A stretch of DNA of 51,236 nucleotides from an uncultured Pseudomonadota bacterium (GCA_937898875.1 CALDKM010000013.1:1-51236), one strand, 5' to 3'; counted from the stretch's first letter, positions 4,639-34,225 are shown. The notes: generated by a model not told the origin, from the letters alone. Numbers and translations: made by a program.

Positions 4639-5922
4639 ATGGCGCACGTCGTGATCCTGGGAGCGGGCCTCGGAGGCATGCCGATGGCCTACGAGATGAA
4701 GCAGGCGATGCGCAAGGACGACCGGCTGACGGTCGTCGGCAACGGGCCGAACTTCCACTTCGTTCCTTCGAACCCGTGGGTCGCGGTCGGCTGGCGGACG
4801 CGCGGCGACATCGAGTTCCCCGCCGGAGCGCCGCTGGCGAAGCGCGGCATCGCGTTCGAGCCCGCCGGGGCGAAGCGCGTGCATCCGGCCGAGAACCGCG
4901 TCGAGCTCTCCGACGGCCGCTTCCTCGATTACGACTACCTGGTGATCGCGACCGGGCCGAAGCTCGCGTTCGACGAGGTCGAGGGACTGGGCCCGAACGG
5001 ACACACGCATTCGATCTGTCACGTCGACCACGCCGTGAAGGCGGAGGGCGCGTGGCAGTCGTTCGTCAAGGATCCGGGCCCCGTCGTCGTGGGCGCGGTG
5101 CAGGGCGCCTCGTGCTTCGGTCCCGCCTACGAGTTCGCGTTCATCATGGACACGGACCTGCGCCGCAGGAAGCTGCGCGATCGCGTCCCGATGACCCTCG
5201 TGACCTCGGAGCCCTATATCGGCCACCTGGGCCTCGGCGGCGTCGGCGACTCGAAGACGATGCTCGAGTCGGCGCTGCGCGAGCGGCACATCAAGTGGAT
5301 CTGCAACGCGAAGGTGACGAAGGTCGAGGCCGGCACGATGCACGTCACCGAGCACGACGAGGAAGGGAAGCCGAAGAAGGAGCATGCGCTTCCGTTCAGG
5401 CACTCGATGATGCTGCCGGCGTTCAAGGGCATCGACGCGGTCGCCGGCATCGAGGGGCTCACCAACCCGCGCGGCTTCATCCTGATCGACGCGCACCAGC
5501 GCAACCCGAAGTATCCGAACATCTACGCCGTGGGCGTGTGCGTCGCGATCCCGCCGGTCGAGGCGACGCCGGTGCCGACCGGCGCGCCGAAGACCGGATA
5601 CATGATCGAGTCGATGGTGACGGCGACCGCGAAGAACATCGGGGCCGCGCTCGCCGGCCGCGCGCCCGCCGAGAAGGCGACGTGGAACGCGCTGTGCCTC
5701 GCCGACATGGGCGACACCGGCATCGCATTCGTCGCGCTGCCGCAGATCCCGCCGCGCAACGTGAACTGGTTCTCCGAAGGCAAGTGGGTGCACTACGCGA
5801 AGGTCGCGTTCGAGAAGTACTTCATCCGGAAGATGAAGAAGGGCACCTCGGAGCCGTTCTACGAGAAGTTCGTGCTGAAGGCGATCGGCGTGGTCCGGCT
5901 GAAGGACAGTCCGAAGGGCTGA
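4639..5922 (+). CDS. sqr: Sulfide:quinone oxidoreductase (type I, SqrA-like)
   Basis: AAGGAGGAG RBS. FAD-binding GAGLGG, the three conserved Cys (SICH, SCFGPAYE, CLADMG) and KTGYMIESM. Confidence 0.93.
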   Translation: MAHVVILGAGLGGMPMAYEMKQAMRKDDRLTVVGNGPNFHFVPSNPWVAVGWRTRGDIEFPAGAPLAKRGIAFEPAGAKRVHPAENRVELSDGRFLDYDYLVIATGPKLAFDEVEGLGPNGHTHSICHVDHAVKAEGAWQSFVKDPGPVVVGAVQGASCFGPAYEFAFIMDTDLRRRKLRDRVPMTLVTSEPYIGHLGLGGVGDSKTMLESALRERHIKWICNAKVTKVEAGTMHVTEHDEEGKPKKEHALPFRHSMMLPAFKGIDAVAGIEGLTNPRGFILIDAHQRNPKYPNIYAVGVCVAIPPVEATPVPTGAPKTGYMIESMVTATAKNIGAALAGRAPAEKATWNALCLADMGDTGIAFVALPQIPPRNVNWFSEGKWVHYAKVAFEKYFIRKMKKGTSEPFYEKFVLKAIGVVRLKDSPKG

Positions 5923-24292: not shown

Positions 24293-24796
24293 ATGGCCCG
24301 GTTGACCGTCAACGGCAAGGTCCGCGAGTTCGAGGCCGAGCCGGATACGCCGCTGCTCTGGGTGCTGCGCGAGCAGCTCGGGCTCACCGGCACCAAGTAC
24401 GGATGCGGCGTGGCGCAGTGCGGGTCCTGCACCGTCCACGTCGACGGCGTCGCGGTGCGCAGCTGCGTGCGTCCGGTCTCGACGGTCGGCGAGGCCGAGA
24501 AGATCGTGACGATCGAGGGACTGTCGCCCACGGGTTCGCATCCGGTGCAGAAGGCCTGGGCCGCGCTCGACGTGCCCCAGTGCGGCTACTGCCAGGCGGG
24601 CATGATCATGGCCGCCGCGTCGCTGCTGCGCTCGACCCCGAATCCGACCGACGCCGACATCGACGCCCAGATGACCAACATCTGCCGCTGCGGGACGTAC
24701 AACCGCGTGCGTGCCGCCATCAAGGCCGCCGCGAAGGGCGGCGACACGAAGAGCGCCGGACTCGCGATCCGCCACGCCGACGGGAGCACGACGTGA
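24293..24796 (+). CDS. (2Fe-2S)-binding small subunit, IorA/CoxS-like
   Basis: [39 protein letters not shown]. Confidence 0.94.
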
Positions 24797-26967
24797 CCCC
24801 GTCGATCTCGCGTCGCCGCTTCATCGTCGCGTCGGCCGCCGCCACCGGCGGCCTCGTCGTCGGATTCCACGTTCCTTTCGCGGGGCCCGCGAACGCGCAG
24901 GCAACCGCCGCGCCCGAGGTCAACGCCTGGGTCGTCGTGCAGCCGGACGACGTCGTCGTGATCCGCATCGCCCGCTCGGAGATGGGTCAGGGCACGCTGA
25001 CCGGACTCGCGCAGCTGGTCGCCGAGGAGCTCGACTGCGACTGGGCGAAGGTGCGTACCGAGTTCCCGACGCCCGGACAGAACCTCGCGCGAAACCGCGC
25101 CTGGGGCAGCTTCTCGACCGGCGGCAGCCGCGGCATCCGCGAGTCGAACGAGTACGTGCGCAAGGGCGGCGCTGCCGCGCGGACGATGCTCGTGCAGGCG
25201 GCGGCGGACCGGTGGGGCGTGCCGGCGGCCGAGTGCGTCGCGGTGAAGGGCACGATCACGCACGCCCCGACCGGACGCCGGACGACCTACGGCAAGGTGG
25301 CCGAAGCGGCGTCGAAGCTCGCGCCGCCGCCGAACGTGCCGCTCAAGGATCCGAAGGACTGGACGATCGCGGGCCAGCGCCTCGCGCGCCTCGACACCGT
25401 CGACAAGACGACCGGCGCGCTCGTGTACGGCATCGACCTCGCGATGCCCGGCATGCTGAACGCGGCGATCCGGGACTGCCCGGTGTTCGGCGGGAAGGTG
25501 AAGGGCTTCGACGCCGCCGTCGCGATGAAGCGCCCGGGTGTGAGGAAGGTGATGCGCATCGGCGACTCGGCGGTCGCGGTGGTCGCCGACACGTGGTGGC
25601 ACGCGAAGTCCGCACTCGACGCGCTGCCGATCGACTGGGACTACGGCCCGCATGCGGACGCGTCGAGCGCGAAGTTCGCGGCGGTGATGAAGGACGGACT
25701 CGACGCGCAGGTCGCGGCGGTCGGCAACCAGGTCGGCGACGCGAGAGCCGCGATCGCGGCGTCGCCGCGCAGGATCGAGGCGGTCTACGCGTATCCGCAT
25801 CAGAATCACGCGACGATGGAGCCGATGAACGCAACGGCCCGCTGGACGCCGGAGCGCTGCGAAGTGTGGACGCCGACGCAGAACGGCGAGGCCGCGCTCG
25901 CGGCGGCGTCCGAGGCCTCGGGCCTGCCGCTCGCGAAATGCGAGGTCTACAAGACGCTCCTGGGCGGCGGCTTCGGACGGCGCGGCGCGGTGCACGACTG
26001 GGTGCGGCAGGCGGTCGCGATCGCGAAGGAGATGCCCGGCACGCCGGTCAAGCTCGTCTGGTCGCGCGAGGAGGACATGCAGCACGGGCGTTACCACCCG
26101 GTCACGCAGTGCAGGCTCGTCGCGGGCCTCGACGCCCAGGGCGACGTTACCGGGCTGCACATGCGGATCTCGGGCCAGTCGATCCTGGCCGGCGTGTTCC
26201 CGGACAACGTCCGCGACGGCAGGGACCCGGCCACGTTCCAGGGCCTCAATCCGCCGGGGCCGGAGGCGTCGATCGGCTACACGTTCCCCGCGCTGCTCGT
26301 CGACCACGCGATGCGCAACCCGCACGTGCCGCCGGGGTTCTGGCGCGGCGTCAACCTCAACCAGAACACGATCTACCTCGAGTGCTTCATCGACGAGATC
26401 GCGCATGCGACCCGGCAGGATCCGCTCGCGCTGCGGCGCAAGCTGATGGCGAACCACCCGAAGCACCTCGGCGTGCTGAACGCGGTCGCGGAGCGCGCGG
26501 GCTGGGGCAGGCCCGCGCCGGCGGGCGTCCACCGCGGGCTCGCGCAGGCGATGGGCTTCGGGAGCTACGTCGCCGCGTGCGCGGAAGTGTCGGTGAGCCG
26601 GGACGGGACGCTGAAGATCCACCGGATCGTCGCGGCAACCGATCCGGGCCACGCGGTGAATCCGCAGCAGATCGAGGCGCAGGTCGAGGGCTCGTTCGCG
26701 TATGGCCTGTCGGCCGCGCTCTACGGCGAGTGCACGGTGAAGGACGGGCGCATCGAGCAGGCCAACTTCGACACCTACCGCATCCTGCGGATGGACGAGA
26801 TGCCGCGCGTCGAGACGATCGTGATGCCGTCGGGCGGATTCTGGGGCGGCGTCGGCGAGCCGACGATCGCGGTCGCGGCGCCCGCGGTGCTCAACGCGAT
26901 CTTCGCGGCGACCGGCAAGCGGATCCGCGAGTTGCCGCTCAAGAACCACAGTCTGGCGAGCGCGTGA
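24793..26967 (+). CDS. Xanthine-oxidase-family molybdopterin-binding subunit (IorB-like) with Tat signal
   Basis: SRRRFIV twin-arginine signal. [40 protein letters not shown]. Confidence 0.93.
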
Positions 26968-27458
26968 GCAGAGGCCCCGGGAGCCGGCGCAAGGTGCTCG
27001 CGGCGCTCGCGTTCGCCCTGCCTGCGCCGCTCCTCGCCCAGTCCCCGATCCGGGTGCCGCTCGTGCCGTTCGAGGTCGTCGGCGACGCGATCCCTGCCCC
27101 GCTCACCGGCGTGCCCGGGGACGCCGCCCGGGGACGCGCGATCGTCGTCGATCGCCGGACGGGGATGTGCCTGCTGTGCCACGCAGGTCCCTTTCCGGAG
27201 GAGCGCGCCCAGGGCACGATCGGCCCCGACCTGAGCGGGGTCGGCGTGCGGCTCGACCGGGCGCAGCTGCGCCTGCGGATCGTGGATGCGCGGCTGGCGC
27301 AGGCGGCGACCACGATGCCCTCGTACTACCGCATCGACGGCCTGACGCGCGTCGGGACCGCCTGGCGCGGGCGGCCGATCCTCTCGGCGCAGCAGGTCGA
27401 GGACGTCGTGGCGCTGCTCGCGTCGCTCGGGGACCCGACGAAGCCCGCGACCCGATGA
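26964..27458 (+). CDS. soxX: SoxX-like monoheme c-type cytochrome
   Basis: GDAIPAPLTGVPGDAARGR, CLLCH, GTIGPDLSG, TTMPSYY. Confidence 0.88.
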   Translation: MSRGPGSRRKVLAALAFALPAPLLAQSPIRVPLVPFEVVGDAIPAPLTGVPGDAARGRAIVVDRRTGMCLLCHAGPFPEERAQGTIGPDLSGVGVRLDRAQLRLRIVDARLAQAATTMPSYYRIDGLTRVGTAWRGRPILSAQQVEDVVALLASLGDPTKPATR

Positions 27459-27925
27459 GAGCTCCCTCCCGCTCCGATGGCACCAGGCGCCGGCTGCTCG
27501 TCGCGGGCGCGGGGCTCGGCGCCTGGCTCGTCGTGCGCCCGGCCGCCGGCGCGTCCGAGGACCTCGCCGCGGCGATCCGTGCCTACACGGGCGGCGCCGA
27601 CGCGCGGCCGGGGAGGGTGAGGCTCGACGTGCCGAAGCTCGTGGACAACGGCAACTCGGTGCCGCTCACCGTGAGCGTCGACAGCCCGATGACGCCGTCG
27701 GACCACGTCGCGGCGATCGCGATCTTCAACGAGCGCAATCCCGAGCGCGACGTGGCGCGCTTCGCGCTCGGGCCCCGCTCGGGGCTCGCGCGCGTGTCGA
27801 CGCGCATCCGACTCGCGACGTCGCAGAGGCTCGTCGCGGTCGCGAGGACGAGCGACGGCGCTCACTGGTCCGACGCGATCGACGTCGTCGTCGTGCTGGC
27901 GGCCTGCATCGAAGGGGAATCGTGA
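27455..27925 (+). CDS. SoxY-related AACIE-arm sulfur-carrier paralog
   Basis: Tat-like TRRRLL, DNGNSVP, VSTRIRL. C-terminus is VVLAACIEGES instead of the canonical GGCGG. Confidence 0.9.
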   Translation: MRAPSRSDGTRRRLLVAGAGLGAWLVVRPAAGASEDLAAAIRAYTGGADARPGRVRLDVPKLVDNGNSVPLTVSVDSPMTPSDHVAAIAIFNERNPERDVARFALGPRSGLARVSTRIRLATSQRLVAVARTSDGAHWSDAIDVVVVLAACIEGES

Positions 27926-28245
27926 TGGCACGCGCGATCGTCTCCGTGCCTCCTGCTGCGAAGCGCGGCGACGTGATCGAGATCCGTACGCTGATCGCGC
28001 ACCCGATGGAGACAGGCTTTCGCGCGGATGCCGAGGGACGGCGCGTGCCGCGCGATCTCATCCGGCGCTTCACGTGCCGGTACAACGGCGAGGTCGTGTT
28101 CGCCGCGGAACTCTTCCCGGCGGCGGCCGCGAATCCGTCGCTCGTGTTCCACACGATCGCGGTCGAGAGCGGGACGCTCGCGTTCACCTGGGAGGGCGAC
28201 AACGGGTTCGCGCAGACCGAGACGGCCGCGATCCGCGTCACATGA
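27925..28245 (+). CDS. soxZ: SoxZ-like protein
   Basis: LIAHPMETGFR, AANPSL. No signal peptide (consistent with piggyback export on SoxY). Confidence 0.9.
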   Translation: MARAIVSVPPAAKRGDVIEIRTLIAHPMETGFRADAEGRRVPRDLIRRFTCRYNGEVVFAAELFPAAAANPSLVFHTIAVESGTLAFTWEGDNGFAQTETAAIRVT

Positions 28246-29024
28246 GCGCTCGCCGCGCGGCGCTCGCCGCCACCGCATTCGCGGTTGCCGGGGCGTGCGC
28301 GTCGTTCGCGTCCGGGCAGGCCGACACGCGCCGCTCCGGCGCCGAGTTCATGAGTCCGGCGACGCAGGCGATCGAGCGCGACGACACGCAGAACCCGGCG
28401 ATGCTCTGGGTCGCGGACGGCGAGGCGCTCTGGATCCGCAAGGCGGGCAGGGCGGGCAGGGCCTGTGTCGACTGCCACGGCGACGCGCGAATCTCGATGC
28501 GGGGCGTCGCGGCGCGCTACCCGGCGTTCGACGCCGTCGCGGGGCGACCGGTCGACCTCGGGCAGCGCGTCGACCTGTGCGCGCAACGCCATCAGCAGGC
28601 CGAATCGCTCCCGCCCGAAAGCGGCCCTCGTCTGGCGCTCGAGAGCTACGTCGCGCTTCAGTCGCGCGGCATGCCGATCGCGCCGCCCGCCGATCCGCGG
28701 CTCGACGCCTGGCGAGACCGCGGGGACGCACTCTACCGGCAGCGGATCGGCCTGCTCGACCTCGCGTGCGAGCAGTGCCACGACGCACTGTCGGGCCGGC
28801 GGCTCGGCGGCAGCGTCATCCCGCAGGCGCATCCGACCGGCTATCCGATCTATCGCCTCGAGTGGCAGACGATGGGCTCGCTGCAGCGGCGCCTGAGAAG
28901 CTGCATGAGCGGAGTGCGCGCCGAGGTGCCGCCCTACGGTGCGCCGGAGCTCGTCGAGCTCGAGCTCCACCTCATGTCCAGGGCGGCCGGCATGGCGGTC
29001 GACGCACCCGGCGTGCGACCTTGA
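28242..29024 (+). CDS. soxA: SoxA-like diheme c-type cytochrome
   Basis: DDTQNPAMLWV, CVDCH, CEQCH, GYPIYRLEWQTMGSLQRRLRSC (active-site Cys), C-terminal PGVRP. Confidence 0.9.
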   Translation: MSARRAALAATAFAVAGACASFASGQADTRRSGAEFMSPATQAIERDDTQNPAMLWVADGEALWIRKAGRAGRACVDCHGDARISMRGVAARYPAFDAVAGRPVDLGQRVDLCAQRHQQAESLPPESGPRLALESYVALQSRGMPIAPPADPRLDAWRDRGDALYRQRIGLLDLACEQCHDALSGRRLGGSVIPQAHPTGYPIYRLEWQTMGSLQRRLRSCMSGVRAEVPPYGAPELVELELHLMSRAAGMAVDAPGVRP

Positions 29025-29284: not shown

Positions 29285-30448
29285 ATGAAATGCACGCTGG
29301 TCGGTTCCCGCTACTTCGGGGCCGCGGTACTCGACGCACTGCTCGGGGACGGCACGCACATCGTGCGCGTCGTCGCGCCCGCGGCCGACGACCGGCTCGC
29401 GCTCGCGGCGCAGAAGGCGGGCATTCCGGTGCACGTCCTGGCGAATCCGAAGATCGTTCCCGGCGACGCGATCGCCGACGGCACCGACCTGATCGTCGCC
29501 GCGCACACCCACGCGCGCGTGAGCAACGAGGCGCTCGCCCGATCGCGCCTGGGCGGCATCGGCTACCACCCGTCGCTGCTTCCGCGCCACCGCGGCATCG
29601 CCGCGGTCGAGTGGACGATCATGGAGAACGACCCGATCGCCGGCGGCTCCGTCTACCACCTGGCCGACGGGTGGGACGCGGGCGGCGTCGCGATGCAGGA
29701 CTGGTGCTTCGTCGCGAAGGGCGAATCCGCGCGGGAGCTGTGGGAGCGCGCGCTCGCGCCGATGGGCCTCGATCTGCTGAAGCGCGTCGTGCGCCATGCG
29801 AAGGAGCACGGCTCGCTTCCGTCGCACAGGCAGGACGAGCGCTTCGCGACGAAGGCGCCCATGATCAGGCGCACCGTCACGCTGACCGAGGGACACCGCG
29901 CGCCGACCGCGTCGCTCGCGGTGACCGTCGTGGGGCCCGATCGCCCCGGCATCGTGAAGCTCCTCGCCGAGCGGGCGAAGGGCTTCGGCGCCAACTGGAC
30001 GGCGAGCCGCATGGCCAACCTCGCCGGCCAGTTCGCCGGCATCGTGCACCTCGACGTGCCCGCGGAGAACGCCGACGCGCTCGCGAACGCGCTGTCCGCG
30101 CTCGAGTCGACCGGCCTGCGCGTCGTGATCGCGAAGAGCGAGGCCGTGGCCGCCCCGGCGGGACGTCGCGCGATCAAGCTCGAGCTCGCGGGACCGGACC
30201 GCCCCGGCATCGTCCGCGACCTGTCGACGAGCCTCGCCGAGCGCGGCGTGTCGATCGAGGACCTGCACACCGAGGTCGTCGACGGCGCGGGCGCGGCCGA
30301 GCACGTCTTCGAGGTCCGGGCGCTGCTGTTCGTGCCCAACGCGCTCTCCAACGACGACCTGCAGCGCGCCCTCGACGCGCTCGCGAGCGAGATGAGGATG
30401 GACCTCGCGCTGGGCGAGAAGCAGGGGCTGGGCGCCGCGCGCGCCTGA
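29285..30448 (+). CDS. Formyltransferase/10-formyl-THF hydrolase-like domain fused to two GcvR-like ACT domains
   Basis: YHPSLLPRHRG..DGWDAG, then VGPDRPGIV..SRMANLAGQFA and AGPDRPGIV..SIEDLHT. Confidence 0.85.
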   Translation: MKCTLVGSRYFGAAVLDALLGDGTHIVRVVAPAADDRLALAAQKAGIPVHVLANPKIVPGDAIADGTDLIVAAHTHARVSNEALARSRLGGIGYHPSLLPRHRGIAAVEWTIMENDPIAGGSVYHLADGWDAGGVAMQDWCFVAKGESARELWERALAPMGLDLLKRVVRHAKEHGSLPSHRQDERFATKAPMIRRTVTLTEGHRAPTASLAVTVVGPDRPGIVKLLAERAKGFGANWTASRMANLAGQFAGIVHLDVPAENADALANALSALESTGLRVVIAKSEAVAAPAGRRAIKLELAGPDRPGIVRDLSTSLAERGVSIEDLHTEVVDGAGAAEHVFEVRALLFVPNALSNDDLQRALDALASEMRMDLALGEKQGLGAARA

Positions 30449-33517: not shown

Positions 33518-34225
33518 ATGCGAGCTCGCGGACATATCCTGCTGATCAGCCACCAGCGCAGTCATTCGACGCTGCTCGCCCACATCCTCGGCAGCCACCC
33601 CGAGATCGACGGCTACAGCGAACTGCACCAGCACTACCTGAGCCCCGTCGACCTGCGTTCGATGACGCACCGGATCGAGGAGGCTACCGGCAGGCCCCGG
33701 CGCGGGCGGTATGCACTCGACAAGCTGCTGCACAATCAGGGCCGGGTCGATCCATCGATCCTTCGCCGCGACGACGTCAGGGTCGTGTTCCTGCTTCGCA
33801 ACCCGCGCGACACGATCACGAGCATGGTGCGGATCGCCGGCGGTCGCGAAACCCCGCAGGGCGCGGTCGACTACTATGTCGACCGCCTCGCGCGAATCGA
33901 CCAGTACAGCACGCTGACGGGAGCGCGTGCCGCGTTCGTCGAAGCGGAGAAGCTGGTGTCGGACACGGAACGCGTGCTCGCACGGCTGACGCGCTACCTC
34001 GAGCTCGCGACGCCGCTCGAGCCGACCTACGAGCGGTTCCGGCTGAGCGGGCAGCCGGGCCACGGCGACTTCTCGCCGAACATTCTCGCCGGCAGGATCC
34101 TGCGCGACGACGAGCGCGATCGCGGAACCGGGAAGCCCGTCGAGATCCCGGCGGAACCGTTGCGCGCGGCGGTCGTCGCGTACGAGTCGCTGCTTTCGGC
34201 GATGCGGTCGCGTCACCCCGACTGA
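33518..34225 (+). CDS. Sulfotransferase-family protein
   Basis: SHQRSHSTLLAHILGSHP (PAPS loop), DKLLHN, FLLRNPRDTITS. Confidence 0.75.
   Translation: MRARGHILLISHQRSHSTLLAHILGSHPEIDGYSELHQHYLSPVDLRSMTHRIEEATGRPRRGRYALDKLLHNQGRVDPSILRRDDVRVVFLLRNPRDTITSMVRIAGGRETPQGAVDYYVDRLARIDQYSTLTGARAAFVEAEKLVSDTERVLARLTRYLELATPLEPTYERFRLSGQPGHGDFSPNILAGRILRDDERDRGTGKPVEIPAEPLRAAVVAYESLLSAMRSRHPD

What the first reader, a model, noticed from the sequence alone, without database searches (positions are those of the whole stretch)
24293..29024. Uncharacterised periplasmic system: Tat-exported molybdoenzyme coupled to paralogous SoxX-Y(AACIE)-Z-A
Seen: all five junctions overlap (GTGA 24793, GTGA 26964, ATGA 27455, TGATG 27923, ATGA 28242), indicating one translationally coupled operon. 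The Mo subunit and SoxY have twin-arginine signals. SoxA keeps two CxxCH motifs and the active-site Cys. The SoxY arm is AACIEGES rather than GGCGG. No soxB, soxCD or FAD subunit gene is present. Established: canonical Sox needs SoxB and usually the sulfite-oxidase-family SoxCD, most xanthine-oxidase-family enzymes need a labile Mo=S ligand, and to my knowledge the AACIE-arm SoxY family has no assigned function. Inference, option A: SoxAX loads sulfur on the AACIE arm to (re)sulfurate the periplasmic Mo centre. Option B: the Mo enzyme replaces SoxCD/SoxB and oxidises an arm-tethered (organo)sulfur substrate, with the c-type hemes as electron exit.
Basis: partly seen in the sequence, partly recalled or inferred. 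Interest (0 to 1): 0.9.

Follow-up and report, generated by a model that had tools for sequence, protein, structure and literature searches.

The report
Molybdoenzyme docking a private Sox arm
This six-gene operon, which recurs across many proteobacteria, encodes a likely exported molybdenum enzyme and its own variant sulfur-carrier protein, predicted to dock at the mouth of the enzyme's active-site funnel, so it likely forms an unstudied periplasmic sulfur relay separate from ordinary thiosulfate oxidation.

Summary
In detail: iorA-iorB-soxX-soxY(AACIE arm)-soxZ-soxA with five overlapping junctions. The genome keeps an ordinary soxYZAX-soxB cluster elsewhere. The arrangement is in print for Starkeya novella (2013, function unknown), and this scan found it before on other DNA.

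What I can add:
- 45 of 45 fetched AAC-arm soxY loci sit beside this IorB clade.
- SoxYZ is the constant neighbour. A four-gene iorAB-soxYZ form occurs in 20 fetched loci, while soxXA and a flavocytochrome c move or drop out.
- A complex prediction supports IorB-SoxYZ binding (0.72, best control 0.00; mark reached by 116 of 157 solved and 2 of 215 mismatched pairs), with the arm cysteine at the funnel rim.
- The module occurs both without soxB (8 of 22 genomes) and beside soxC-family genes (25 of 44), so it is not a SoxCD stand-in.
- XdhC is present in 44 of 44 module genomes, so first-time sulfuration is probably conventional.

Best reading (0.4): the enzyme oxidises sulfur carried on the arm. 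Sulfur delivery to molybdenum, as repair or for C-S bond formation, remains open (0.35 together). No substrate is shown.

The parts
24293..24796 (+). iorA: two-[2Fe-2S] small subunit of a xanthine-oxidase-family enzyme; no signal peptide seen, so co-export with IorB is inferred
   Evidence: Fer2 and Fer2_2; translation
24793..26967 (+). iorB: Tat-signal Mo subunit, IorB/AldH type; Glu689 and Arg518 invariant in 80 of 80 linked copies, Gly398 at the funnel in 74 of 80
   Evidence: TIGR01409; MoCoBD_1/2; 8GY3_C E 6e-72, TM 0.82; residue tallies
26964..27458 (+). soxX: monoheme c cytochrome (one CxxCH)
   Evidence: TIGR04485 72.7 bits, cut-off 61
27455..27925 (+). soxY paralogue with AACIE arm; carrier Cys151
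   Evidence: TIGR04487 met, TIGR04488 not met; Cys151 invariant in 43 of 43 aligned
27925..28245 (+). soxZ
   Evidence: TIGR04490 78.7 bits, cut-off 76
28242..29024 (+). soxA: diheme type, two CxxCH and active-site Cys221
   Evidence: TIGR04484 202.7 bits; 1H31 E 1.9e-39; both CxxCH and the RxxC motif kept in all 47 module-type SoxA listed

Best explanation
The operon encodes a likely periplasmic xanthine-oxidase-family molybdoenzyme (IorAB) that is predicted to bind its own SoxYZ carrier at the mouth of its substrate funnel and would oxidise a sulfur species carried on the arm cysteine. Step 1 (shown): the genes, motifs and conserved linkage. Step 2 (predicted, about 0.8): IorB binds SoxYZ, with arm residues 147-152 at the funnel rim. 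Step 3 (inferred from known Sox chemistry): SoxXA, and in many relatives a flavocytochrome c sulfide dehydrogenase, load sulfane sulfur on Cys151; where soxXA is missing from the locus, another SoxXA in the genome would do this. Step 4 (inferred, weakest): the sulfane cargo bridges the last stretch to Mo and is oxidised to an oxyanion released as sulfite or thiosulfate, with electrons leaving through the two [2Fe-2S] clusters to c-type hemes. The stiffer, longer AAC arm would keep this pool apart from SoxB. The net role would be periplasmic clearing of sulfide or sulfane sulfur rather than growth on thiosulfate.
For: Linkage: 23 of 23 loci and 22 of 22 from a phylum sample. Reverse direction: 23 of 28 clade IorB copies lie beside soxXYZA, and 63 of 78 lie beside a module-type soxY in an order sample (counted by hand from coordinates). 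SoxYZ is the constant neighbour: four-gene iorAB-soxYZ in L096-L110, L159, L160, L168 and, in other branches, L156 and L157; iorAB with soxXA but no soxYZ was seen once (L076). Complex: score 0.72, best of 3 controls 0.00; mark reached by 116 of 157 solved and 2 of 215 mismatched pairs (counts hold only roughly: own alignments, three chains); runs agree in at least 78% of contacts, partner pLDDT at least 89. The interface includes IorB 364-374, 398-401, 463-476, 506-510 and SoxY Cys151. Gly398 is kept in 74 of 80 linked copies and 0 of 6 sister enzymes. Sulfur-loading parts are intact: SoxA cysteine; flavocytochrome c in 24 of 43 loci. The module stands without soxB in 8 of 22 genomes, each with only one TIGR04487 match. 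[quoted passage not shown]
Against: No substrate or product is shown. The family's chemistry is hydride transfer from C-H to Mo=S (PMC13653126 section 2.3); I know of no member that oxidises sulfane sulfur (recalled). XdhC in 44 of 44 module genomes suggests an ordinary sulfido centre. The S. novella cluster is barely expressed on glucose, methanol or thiosulfate, and its authors suggest it may lack function (PMC3797975 passages). Clade members live without a module-type SoxY: 9 copies in about 5 lineages, and 5 of the 9 keep Gly398. The listed interface does not include Arg518, Glu689 or 394-397, and I had no coordinates to measure a Cys-Mo distance. How the product leaves the arm without SoxB is unexplained. 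Interface drift in orphans is weak per sequence (p 0.09) and comes from two lineages.
Confidence: 0.4

Rival explanations
1. Repair: IorAB is an ordinary aldehyde or heterocycle hydroxylase, and the persulfurated arm restores a lost Mo=S ligand in the periplasm.
For: Same docking. Catalytic Glu689 is invariant. The closest structure is an aldehyde dehydrogenase subunit. Orphan copies exist, one with a plain cytochrome c gene beside it (L079). soxY2 is not needed for thiosulfate oxidation in B. diazoefficiens (PMC5748708, passage citing its ref. 3; that soxY2 is this gene type is recalled, not tested). SoxYZ-like proteins beside PQQ dehydrogenases are proposed to serve maturation or protection (PMC12997753 section 15).
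Against: The XO-family sulfido ligand is described as relatively stable to O2 and lost only in the reduced state with superoxide or peroxide (PMC13653126 section 4 part 1). The six sister IorB loci fetched have no Sox genes. Four to six tightly overlapping genes is a large outlay for repair. XdhC is always present.
Confidence: 0.2
2. Catalytic sulfur transfer: the arm re-sulfurates Mo at every turnover and the enzyme builds (or, in reverse, strips) a C-S bond on a small molecule, for example aldehyde to thioacid or heterocycle to thiol.
For: Docking at the funnel and intact loaders. Precedent in another metallopterin family: ergothioneine synthase MES moves desulfurase sulfur onto trimethylhistidine (PMC9516567, abstract only). 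Mo=S model complexes transfer sulfur in preference to oxygen (PMC13653126). Fits the XdhC dependence.
Against: No recurring transporter, regulator or pathway gene points to an organic substrate: across 43 loci the only widespread extras were the flavocytochrome c pair. MES belongs to a different family and occurs in anaerobes.
Confidence: 0.15
3. The Sox parts are electron exit and shield: SoxXA hemes replace the triheme cytochrome of AldFGH, and SoxYZ only caps the funnel or scavenges inhibitory sulfur species.
For: No AldF-type cytochrome at the locus, whereas one sister locus has one (L082). L076 keeps iorAB-soxX-soxA in a single-contig genome with no TIGR04487 match.
Against: L076 is one case against 20 loci that keep soxYZ and lack soxXA. 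The SoxA catalytic cysteine and SoxY Cys151 are invariant.
Confidence: 0.15
4. Redundant isoenzymes of the canonical thiosulfate pathway, or a relic without function.
For: Low expression in S. novella (PMC3797975); 14 of 22 module genomes have soxB.
Against: Present without soxB in 8 of 22 genomes. Mean column identity is 71% for IorB and 52% for SoxY over 43 loci. Kept in genomes of 1.7-2.1 Mb.
Confidence: 0.05

Closest known systems
Second sox cluster of Starkeya novella (soxX2Y2Z2A2F2, Snov_1982-1977, with XO-family Mo enzyme Snov_1975/1976; PMC3797975)
   Same: soxX, Y, Z, A without soxB or soxCD, in one operon with a xanthine-oxidase-family enzyme (passages).
   Different: No flavocytochrome c at this locus (one lies on another contig). 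I did not see the Snov sequences, so their arm type is untested. The passages read give no mechanism, no breadth and no direct IorB-SoxYZ link.
NCBIfam TIGR04487, SoxY-related AACIE arm protein
   Same: Member, 198 bits against a cut-off of 172.
   Different: The IorB-linked carrier family is wider than the model: AACLIG, AACVVL, SACLD and GCG-type arms fall in the same clade (support 0.86).
Canonical Sox system (SoxXA, SoxYZ, SoxB, SoxCD; Paracoccus/Rhodovulum type)
   Same: Gene order X-Y-Z-A as in L088-L090; diheme SoxA closest to 1H31; carrier cysteine at the same position.
   Different: AAC arm with an acidic tail; no soxB or soxCD in the cluster; an XO-family enzyme is the neighbour.
Membrane-bound aldehyde dehydrogenase AldFGH (PDB 8GY3) and IorAB-type enzymes
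   Same: Best sequence and fold match; Tat signal; separate Fe-S subunit; no FAD subunit.
   Different: No triheme cytochrome subunit; clade-specific funnel residues (Gly398, Trp684, mostly Arg113); sox neighbours.
SoxYZ-like carriers beside PQQ alcohol dehydrogenases (TIGR04557) and other divergent SoxY (PMC11237559, PMC12997753)
   Same: A SoxYZ paralogue attached to a periplasmic dehydrogenase, function untested.
   Different: Those are fused SoxYZ with SoxH and a rhodanese; this SoxY fails TIGR04557 (54 bits, cut-off 140). A word search of PMC11237559 found no mention of molybdenum, xanthine or aldehyde.

Membership tests
TIGR04487 AACIE-arm SoxY | Score over the curated cut-off and AACIE-type C-terminus | tested here: met
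   198.1 against 172; ends AACIEGES
Canonical SoxY (TIGR04488) | Score over cut-off and GGCGG arm | tested here: not met
   86.2 against 125
Canonical Sox thiosulfate-oxidising cluster | soxB (and usually soxCD) in the cluster | tested here: not met
   No soxB hit in the window; soxB on C230; soxC not found in the genome
Canonical Sox thiosulfate-oxidising cluster | SoxXA with heme motifs and active-site cysteine | tested here: met
   TIGR04484 and TIGR04485 over cut-off; Cys221 aligns to 1H31
Canonical Sox thiosulfate-oxidising cluster | Thiosulfate-dependent cytochrome c reduction with SoxB and SoxCD | not testable with these tools
   Needs reconstitution
Starkeya second-cluster type | soxXYZA plus XO-family Mo enzyme, no soxB or soxCD | tested here: met
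   description in PMC3797975
Starkeya second-cluster type | soxF-like flavocytochrome c in the operon | tested here: not met
   Absent at this locus; in 24 of 43 related loci and on C105
Starkeya second-cluster type | Orthology to Snov_1975-1982 by sequence | not tested
   Snov sequences were not fetched
Xanthine-oxidase family, IorB/AldH type | MoCoBD domains, fold, catalytic glutamate, two-[2Fe-2S] partner | tested here: met
AldFGH aldehyde dehydrogenase | Triheme cytochrome c subunit in the operon | tested here: not met
   Only monoheme SoxX and diheme SoxA
Xanthine-oxidase family, IorB/AldH type | Mo=S ligand and hydroxylase activity | not testable with these tools
   XdhC co-occurrence is indirect

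The most novel reading that the evidence does not exclude
SoxY persulfide hands sulfur directly to the molybdenum of a periplasmic xanthine-oxidase-family enzyme: either the first in vivo repair of a desulfo molybdoenzyme in bacteria (a 2026 review, PMC13653126, says none has been identified) or a hydroxylase-fold enzyme that makes C-S bonds with carrier-borne sulfur at every turnover.
Probability: 0.35. Interest if true: 0.9.

Novelty: new variant of a known kind. Interest (0 to 1): 0.7.

Why it matters
All leading readings give a xanthine-oxidase-family enzyme a protein-tethered sulfur partner, which none of my 10 paper searches found described. The Mo-subunit clade is common: 71 of 301 sampled genomes of the window's order and 27 of 401 of its phylum carry it, and most of them carry the carrier too. 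A role would explain the curated but unassigned AACIE-arm family and the 'second sox clusters' dismissed as duplicates, and would correct annotations that read these soxXYZA genes as thiosulfate oxidation. The four-gene form and the predicted contact residues make the question directly testable with four proteins.

Tried and rejected
Paper searches (10 of 10 used):
- soxY+soxA+isoquinoline gave 0; AACIE gave 23 hits, the 20 listed unrelated.
- soxY2/soxA2/Bradyrhizobium gave 1; SoxYZ+paralog+aldehyde+molybd+periplasm gave 2, and the passages read in PMC2864759 do not cover this cluster.
- SoxAX+xanthine+soxF gave the Starkeya paper; one search gave 4 listed papers.
- The AldFGH structure paper was not found.
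- Recalled locus tags bll2732-2737 gave one passage, a predicted Irr site upstream of bll2737-bll2736 (PMC1698941); that these tags are this cluster is recalled and untested.
- One search gave reviews. Three papers were not held. No supplements were read; proteomic tables of PMC3797975 may bear on expression.

Other dead ends:
- RNA runs hold only contigs with at most 0.33 of the words; they show neither expression nor co-transcription.
- No sigma-70 promoter or terminator match.
- No IorB-SoxY fusion among longer proteins; the 3 hits are singletons, and the two read look like chimeric or frameshifted calls (weak search).
- I suspected the four-gene genomes held the module's soxXA elsewhere. 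Rejected: the 16 fetched SoxA loci are monoheme, 23-30% identical and outside the module clade. But 28 of 29 such genomes do have some SoxA, so independence from SoxXA is not shown.
- Arg113 as a cargo-binding marker is weak: its loss in one orphan lineage is shared with linked neighbours L115 and L116.
- A C1 link (formyltransferase downstream here, purU near 4 loci) is not conserved enough to use.
- Complementary distribution with soxC was rejected (the model may also catch SorA).
Full report
Observation. The six genes are intact and overlap at all five junctions as stated. IorA carries Fer2 and Fer2_2 domains; IorB carries MoCoBD_1/2 and a Tat signal over cut-off; SoxX, SoxZ and SoxA pass their NCBIfam models; SoxY passes TIGR04487 and fails canonical TIGR04488. 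SoxA is diheme and closest to 1H31, with the active-site cysteine aligned. IorB's best match by sequence and fold is the aldehyde dehydrogenase large subunit 8GY3_C (E 6e-72; TM 0.82 on a model with mean pLDDT 82.5). The genome (93% complete) has a separate soxYZAX-redoxin-soxB cluster with a GGCGG arm (that SoxY is 31% identical over 95 residues), a flavocytochrome c pair on C105, two xdhC matches and no soxC match.

Linkage from the carrier side. One has a frameshifted iorB (L006) and one a 4.7 kb insert between soxX and soxY (L015). In 401 phylum genomes, 14 passed TIGR04487, including the window's. I fetched the 13 others, 8 near-cut-off hits with xAC arms and G279; all 22 have iorAB beside soxXYZA. 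The five GGCG-type loci fetched at length (L088-L092) have no iorB; three have soxB after soxA.

Linkage from the enzyme side. In the same 401 genomes, 28 IorB matches score 931 bits or more, and the next scores 572 (at most two candidates scored per genome). Of these, 23 are in full modules, 1 has soxXA only, and 4 stand alone. In 301 genomes of the order, 78 matches at E 1e-200 or better fall in 71 genomes; 63 of the 78 lie within about 4 kb of a module-type soxY, and 66 of the 71 genomes have one somewhere (counted by hand). Kin are not independent, so I give no p-value. In a FastTree tree, linked and orphan IorB form one clade (1.0) against six sister enzymes, a small outgroup. The linked SoxY proteins also form one clade (0.86).

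What is constant. The order sample revealed a four-gene form, iorA-iorB-soxY-soxZ, with short GCG- or SC-type arms: all 15 loci of that spacing fetched (L096-L110) and three more (L159, L160, L168). Two AAC-arm loci in other branches also lack soxXA within the fetched 4-7 kb (L156, L157; both genomes have a module soxXA elsewhere), one has soxYZ moved ahead of soxXA (L158), and one lacks only soxX (L111). The reverse, soxXA without soxYZ, was seen once (L076). Of 29 genomes of the short forms, 28 have a SoxA somewhere; the 16 such loci fetched are monoheme clusters outside the module clade. So SoxYZ is the enzyme's fixed neighbour, and SoxXA may be supplied from elsewhere. A flavocytochrome c pair is in 24 of 43 loci, between iorB and soxX or after soxA. 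In family f67 the operon lies among moa genes (7 of 7 loci), an xdhC-mocA fusion and, in three loci, tauE.

Relation to canonical Sox. Of 22 module genomes from the phylum sample, 14 have soxB and 8 do not; those 8 show only one TIGR04487 match each. Of the 23 genomes behind L001-L023, 14 pass the SoxB cut-off, 2 have fragments and 7 have none (completeness not given). TIGR04555 is over cut-off in 25 of 44 module genomes and 0 of 7 in f67. XdhC is in 44 of 44 module genomes and 30 of 31 others. In single-contig G246 and G392 the module's iorB holds the only MoCoBD_1 matches. The module is therefore its own unit, not a spare part for SoxCD, and its Mo centre is likely matured in the usual way.

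Predicted complex. IorB (38-724) scored against SoxY (33-156) plus SoxZ gave 0.72, best of three controls 0.00. The mark was reached by 116 of 157 solved and 2 of 215 mismatched pairs; these counts hold only roughly because I supplied the alignments and three chains. Runs agree in at least 78% of contacts and partner pLDDT is at least 89. I recall no solved complex of an XO-family enzyme with SoxYZ. Contacts join SoxY 60-65, 119-122 and 145-155 (including Cys151) and SoxZ 30-39 to IorB 98-108, 364-380, 398-401, 463-480 and 506-516. Gly398 follows the GGGFGRR motif and aligns to the proline of 5Y6Q; that this is the xanthine oxidase Glu802 position at the funnel is recalled. The invariant Arg518 and Glu689 are not among the listed contacts, so the arm appears to stop at the rim and its cargo would have to span the rest. 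The model supports binding; it does not show it, and a close-cousin control (canonical SoxYZ) was not run.

Independent check of the interface. At 17 conserved interface positions, 8 IorB copies from genomes without a module-type SoxY deviate 0.257 against 0.103 at 235 other conserved positions (permutation over positions p 0.00085). Seven unlinked copies in genomes that keep the carrier deviate 0.126 against 0.095 (p 0.25). Per sequence the contrast is weak (p 0.09); only 4 of 8 orphans show it and they form two lineages. Funnel residues also change with substrate. This is mild support only.

Mechanism. Shown: genes, motifs, linkage. Predicted: binding at the funnel. Inferred: SoxXA and the flavocytochrome load sulfane sulfur (SoxAX chemistry and the sulfane carrier form from PMC5336275 passages; flavocytochromes yield polysulfide, PMC9774590 passages). 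I favour oxidation of the arm-bound sulfur (0.4), because in soxB- and soxC-free genomes the loaders have no other identified sink and the carrier is the fixed neighbour. Against it, the family's known chemistry is C-H hydride transfer (PMC13653126 section 2.3). Repair of Mo=S (0.2) fits the docking and the orphans, but the ligand is described as fairly stable (section 4 part 1). Catalytic C-S formation (0.15) has a precedent in another family (PMC9516567, abstract) but no substrate clue. Electron exit or shielding (0.15) rests on one locus.

What is known. PMC3797975 (passages) describes the S. novella second cluster with its XO-family enzyme, finds it barely expressed, and leaves its role open. 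PMC5748708 (passages) states that only soxY1 is essential for thiosulfate oxidation in B. diazoefficiens. PMC11237559 (passages and section 24 part 1) and PMC12997753 (passages and section 15) describe other SoxY paralogues beside dehydrogenases. [quoted passage not shown] Five earlier notes of this scan report the same operon on other DNA; none of the lines shown mentions the four-gene form or a predicted complex. I had found the Starkeya paper before the first look-up.

Verdict. A real, widespread, uncharacterised system whose gene arrangement was noted in 2013. The four-gene form and the predicted arm-to-funnel contact move it from a gene neighbourhood to a specific, testable enzyme-carrier pair. 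Novelty: new variant of a known kind. Interest 0.7.

Noticed in passing
window 4639-5922 (+): 427-aa flavoprotein resembling a sulfide:quinone oxidoreductase (NF049943 E 3.5e-30, below cut-off), sitting between the adaptor and permease genes of an RND efflux operon.
   Followed up: partly
window 29285-30448 (+): Formyltransferase fused to two ACT domains directly after soxA; purU-like genes lie near four related loci. Link not established.
   Followed up: partly
G000:C230 (L024 1674-6437): Canonical soxY-soxZ-soxA-soxX-redoxin-soxB cluster; no soxC match in the genome.
   Followed up: yes
G000:C105 (L095 2488-4111): Cytochrome c plus Tat-signal flavocytochrome c flavoprotein, 62% identical to the one in related locus L001; may serve the module from elsewhere.
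   Followed up: partly
L096-L110, L159, L160, L168: Four-gene iorA-iorB-soxY-soxZ operons with short GCG- or SC-type arms that TIGR04487 does not name; likely annotated as ordinary soxYZ.
   Followed up: yes
L076 (G206:C1 about 2354800-2358900): iorA-iorB-soxX-soxA with no soxYZ, in a single-contig genome without a TIGR04487 match.
   Followed up: partly
L119, L121, L124: soxXYZA transcribed divergently from iorAB; in L126, L131, L163 and L165 soxXYZA lies apart from iorAB in genomes that have both.
   Followed up: no
L068, L069, L071, L081: Small ModE-like regulator, xdhC-mocA fusion and moaA-D-E-B-C-moeA directly after soxA (moeA beyond the fetched end in L081); tauE in L071, L074 and L081.
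   Followed up: partly
L135 2501-7725: Cytochrome c, two flavocytochrome c flavoproteins and a soxYZ pair with a SGCGM arm, without iorB, soxX or soxA.
   Followed up: no
window 33518-34225 (+): Stand-alone sulfotransferase-family gene 4.5 kb downstream of the operon; not seen as a recurring neighbour.
   Followed up: no
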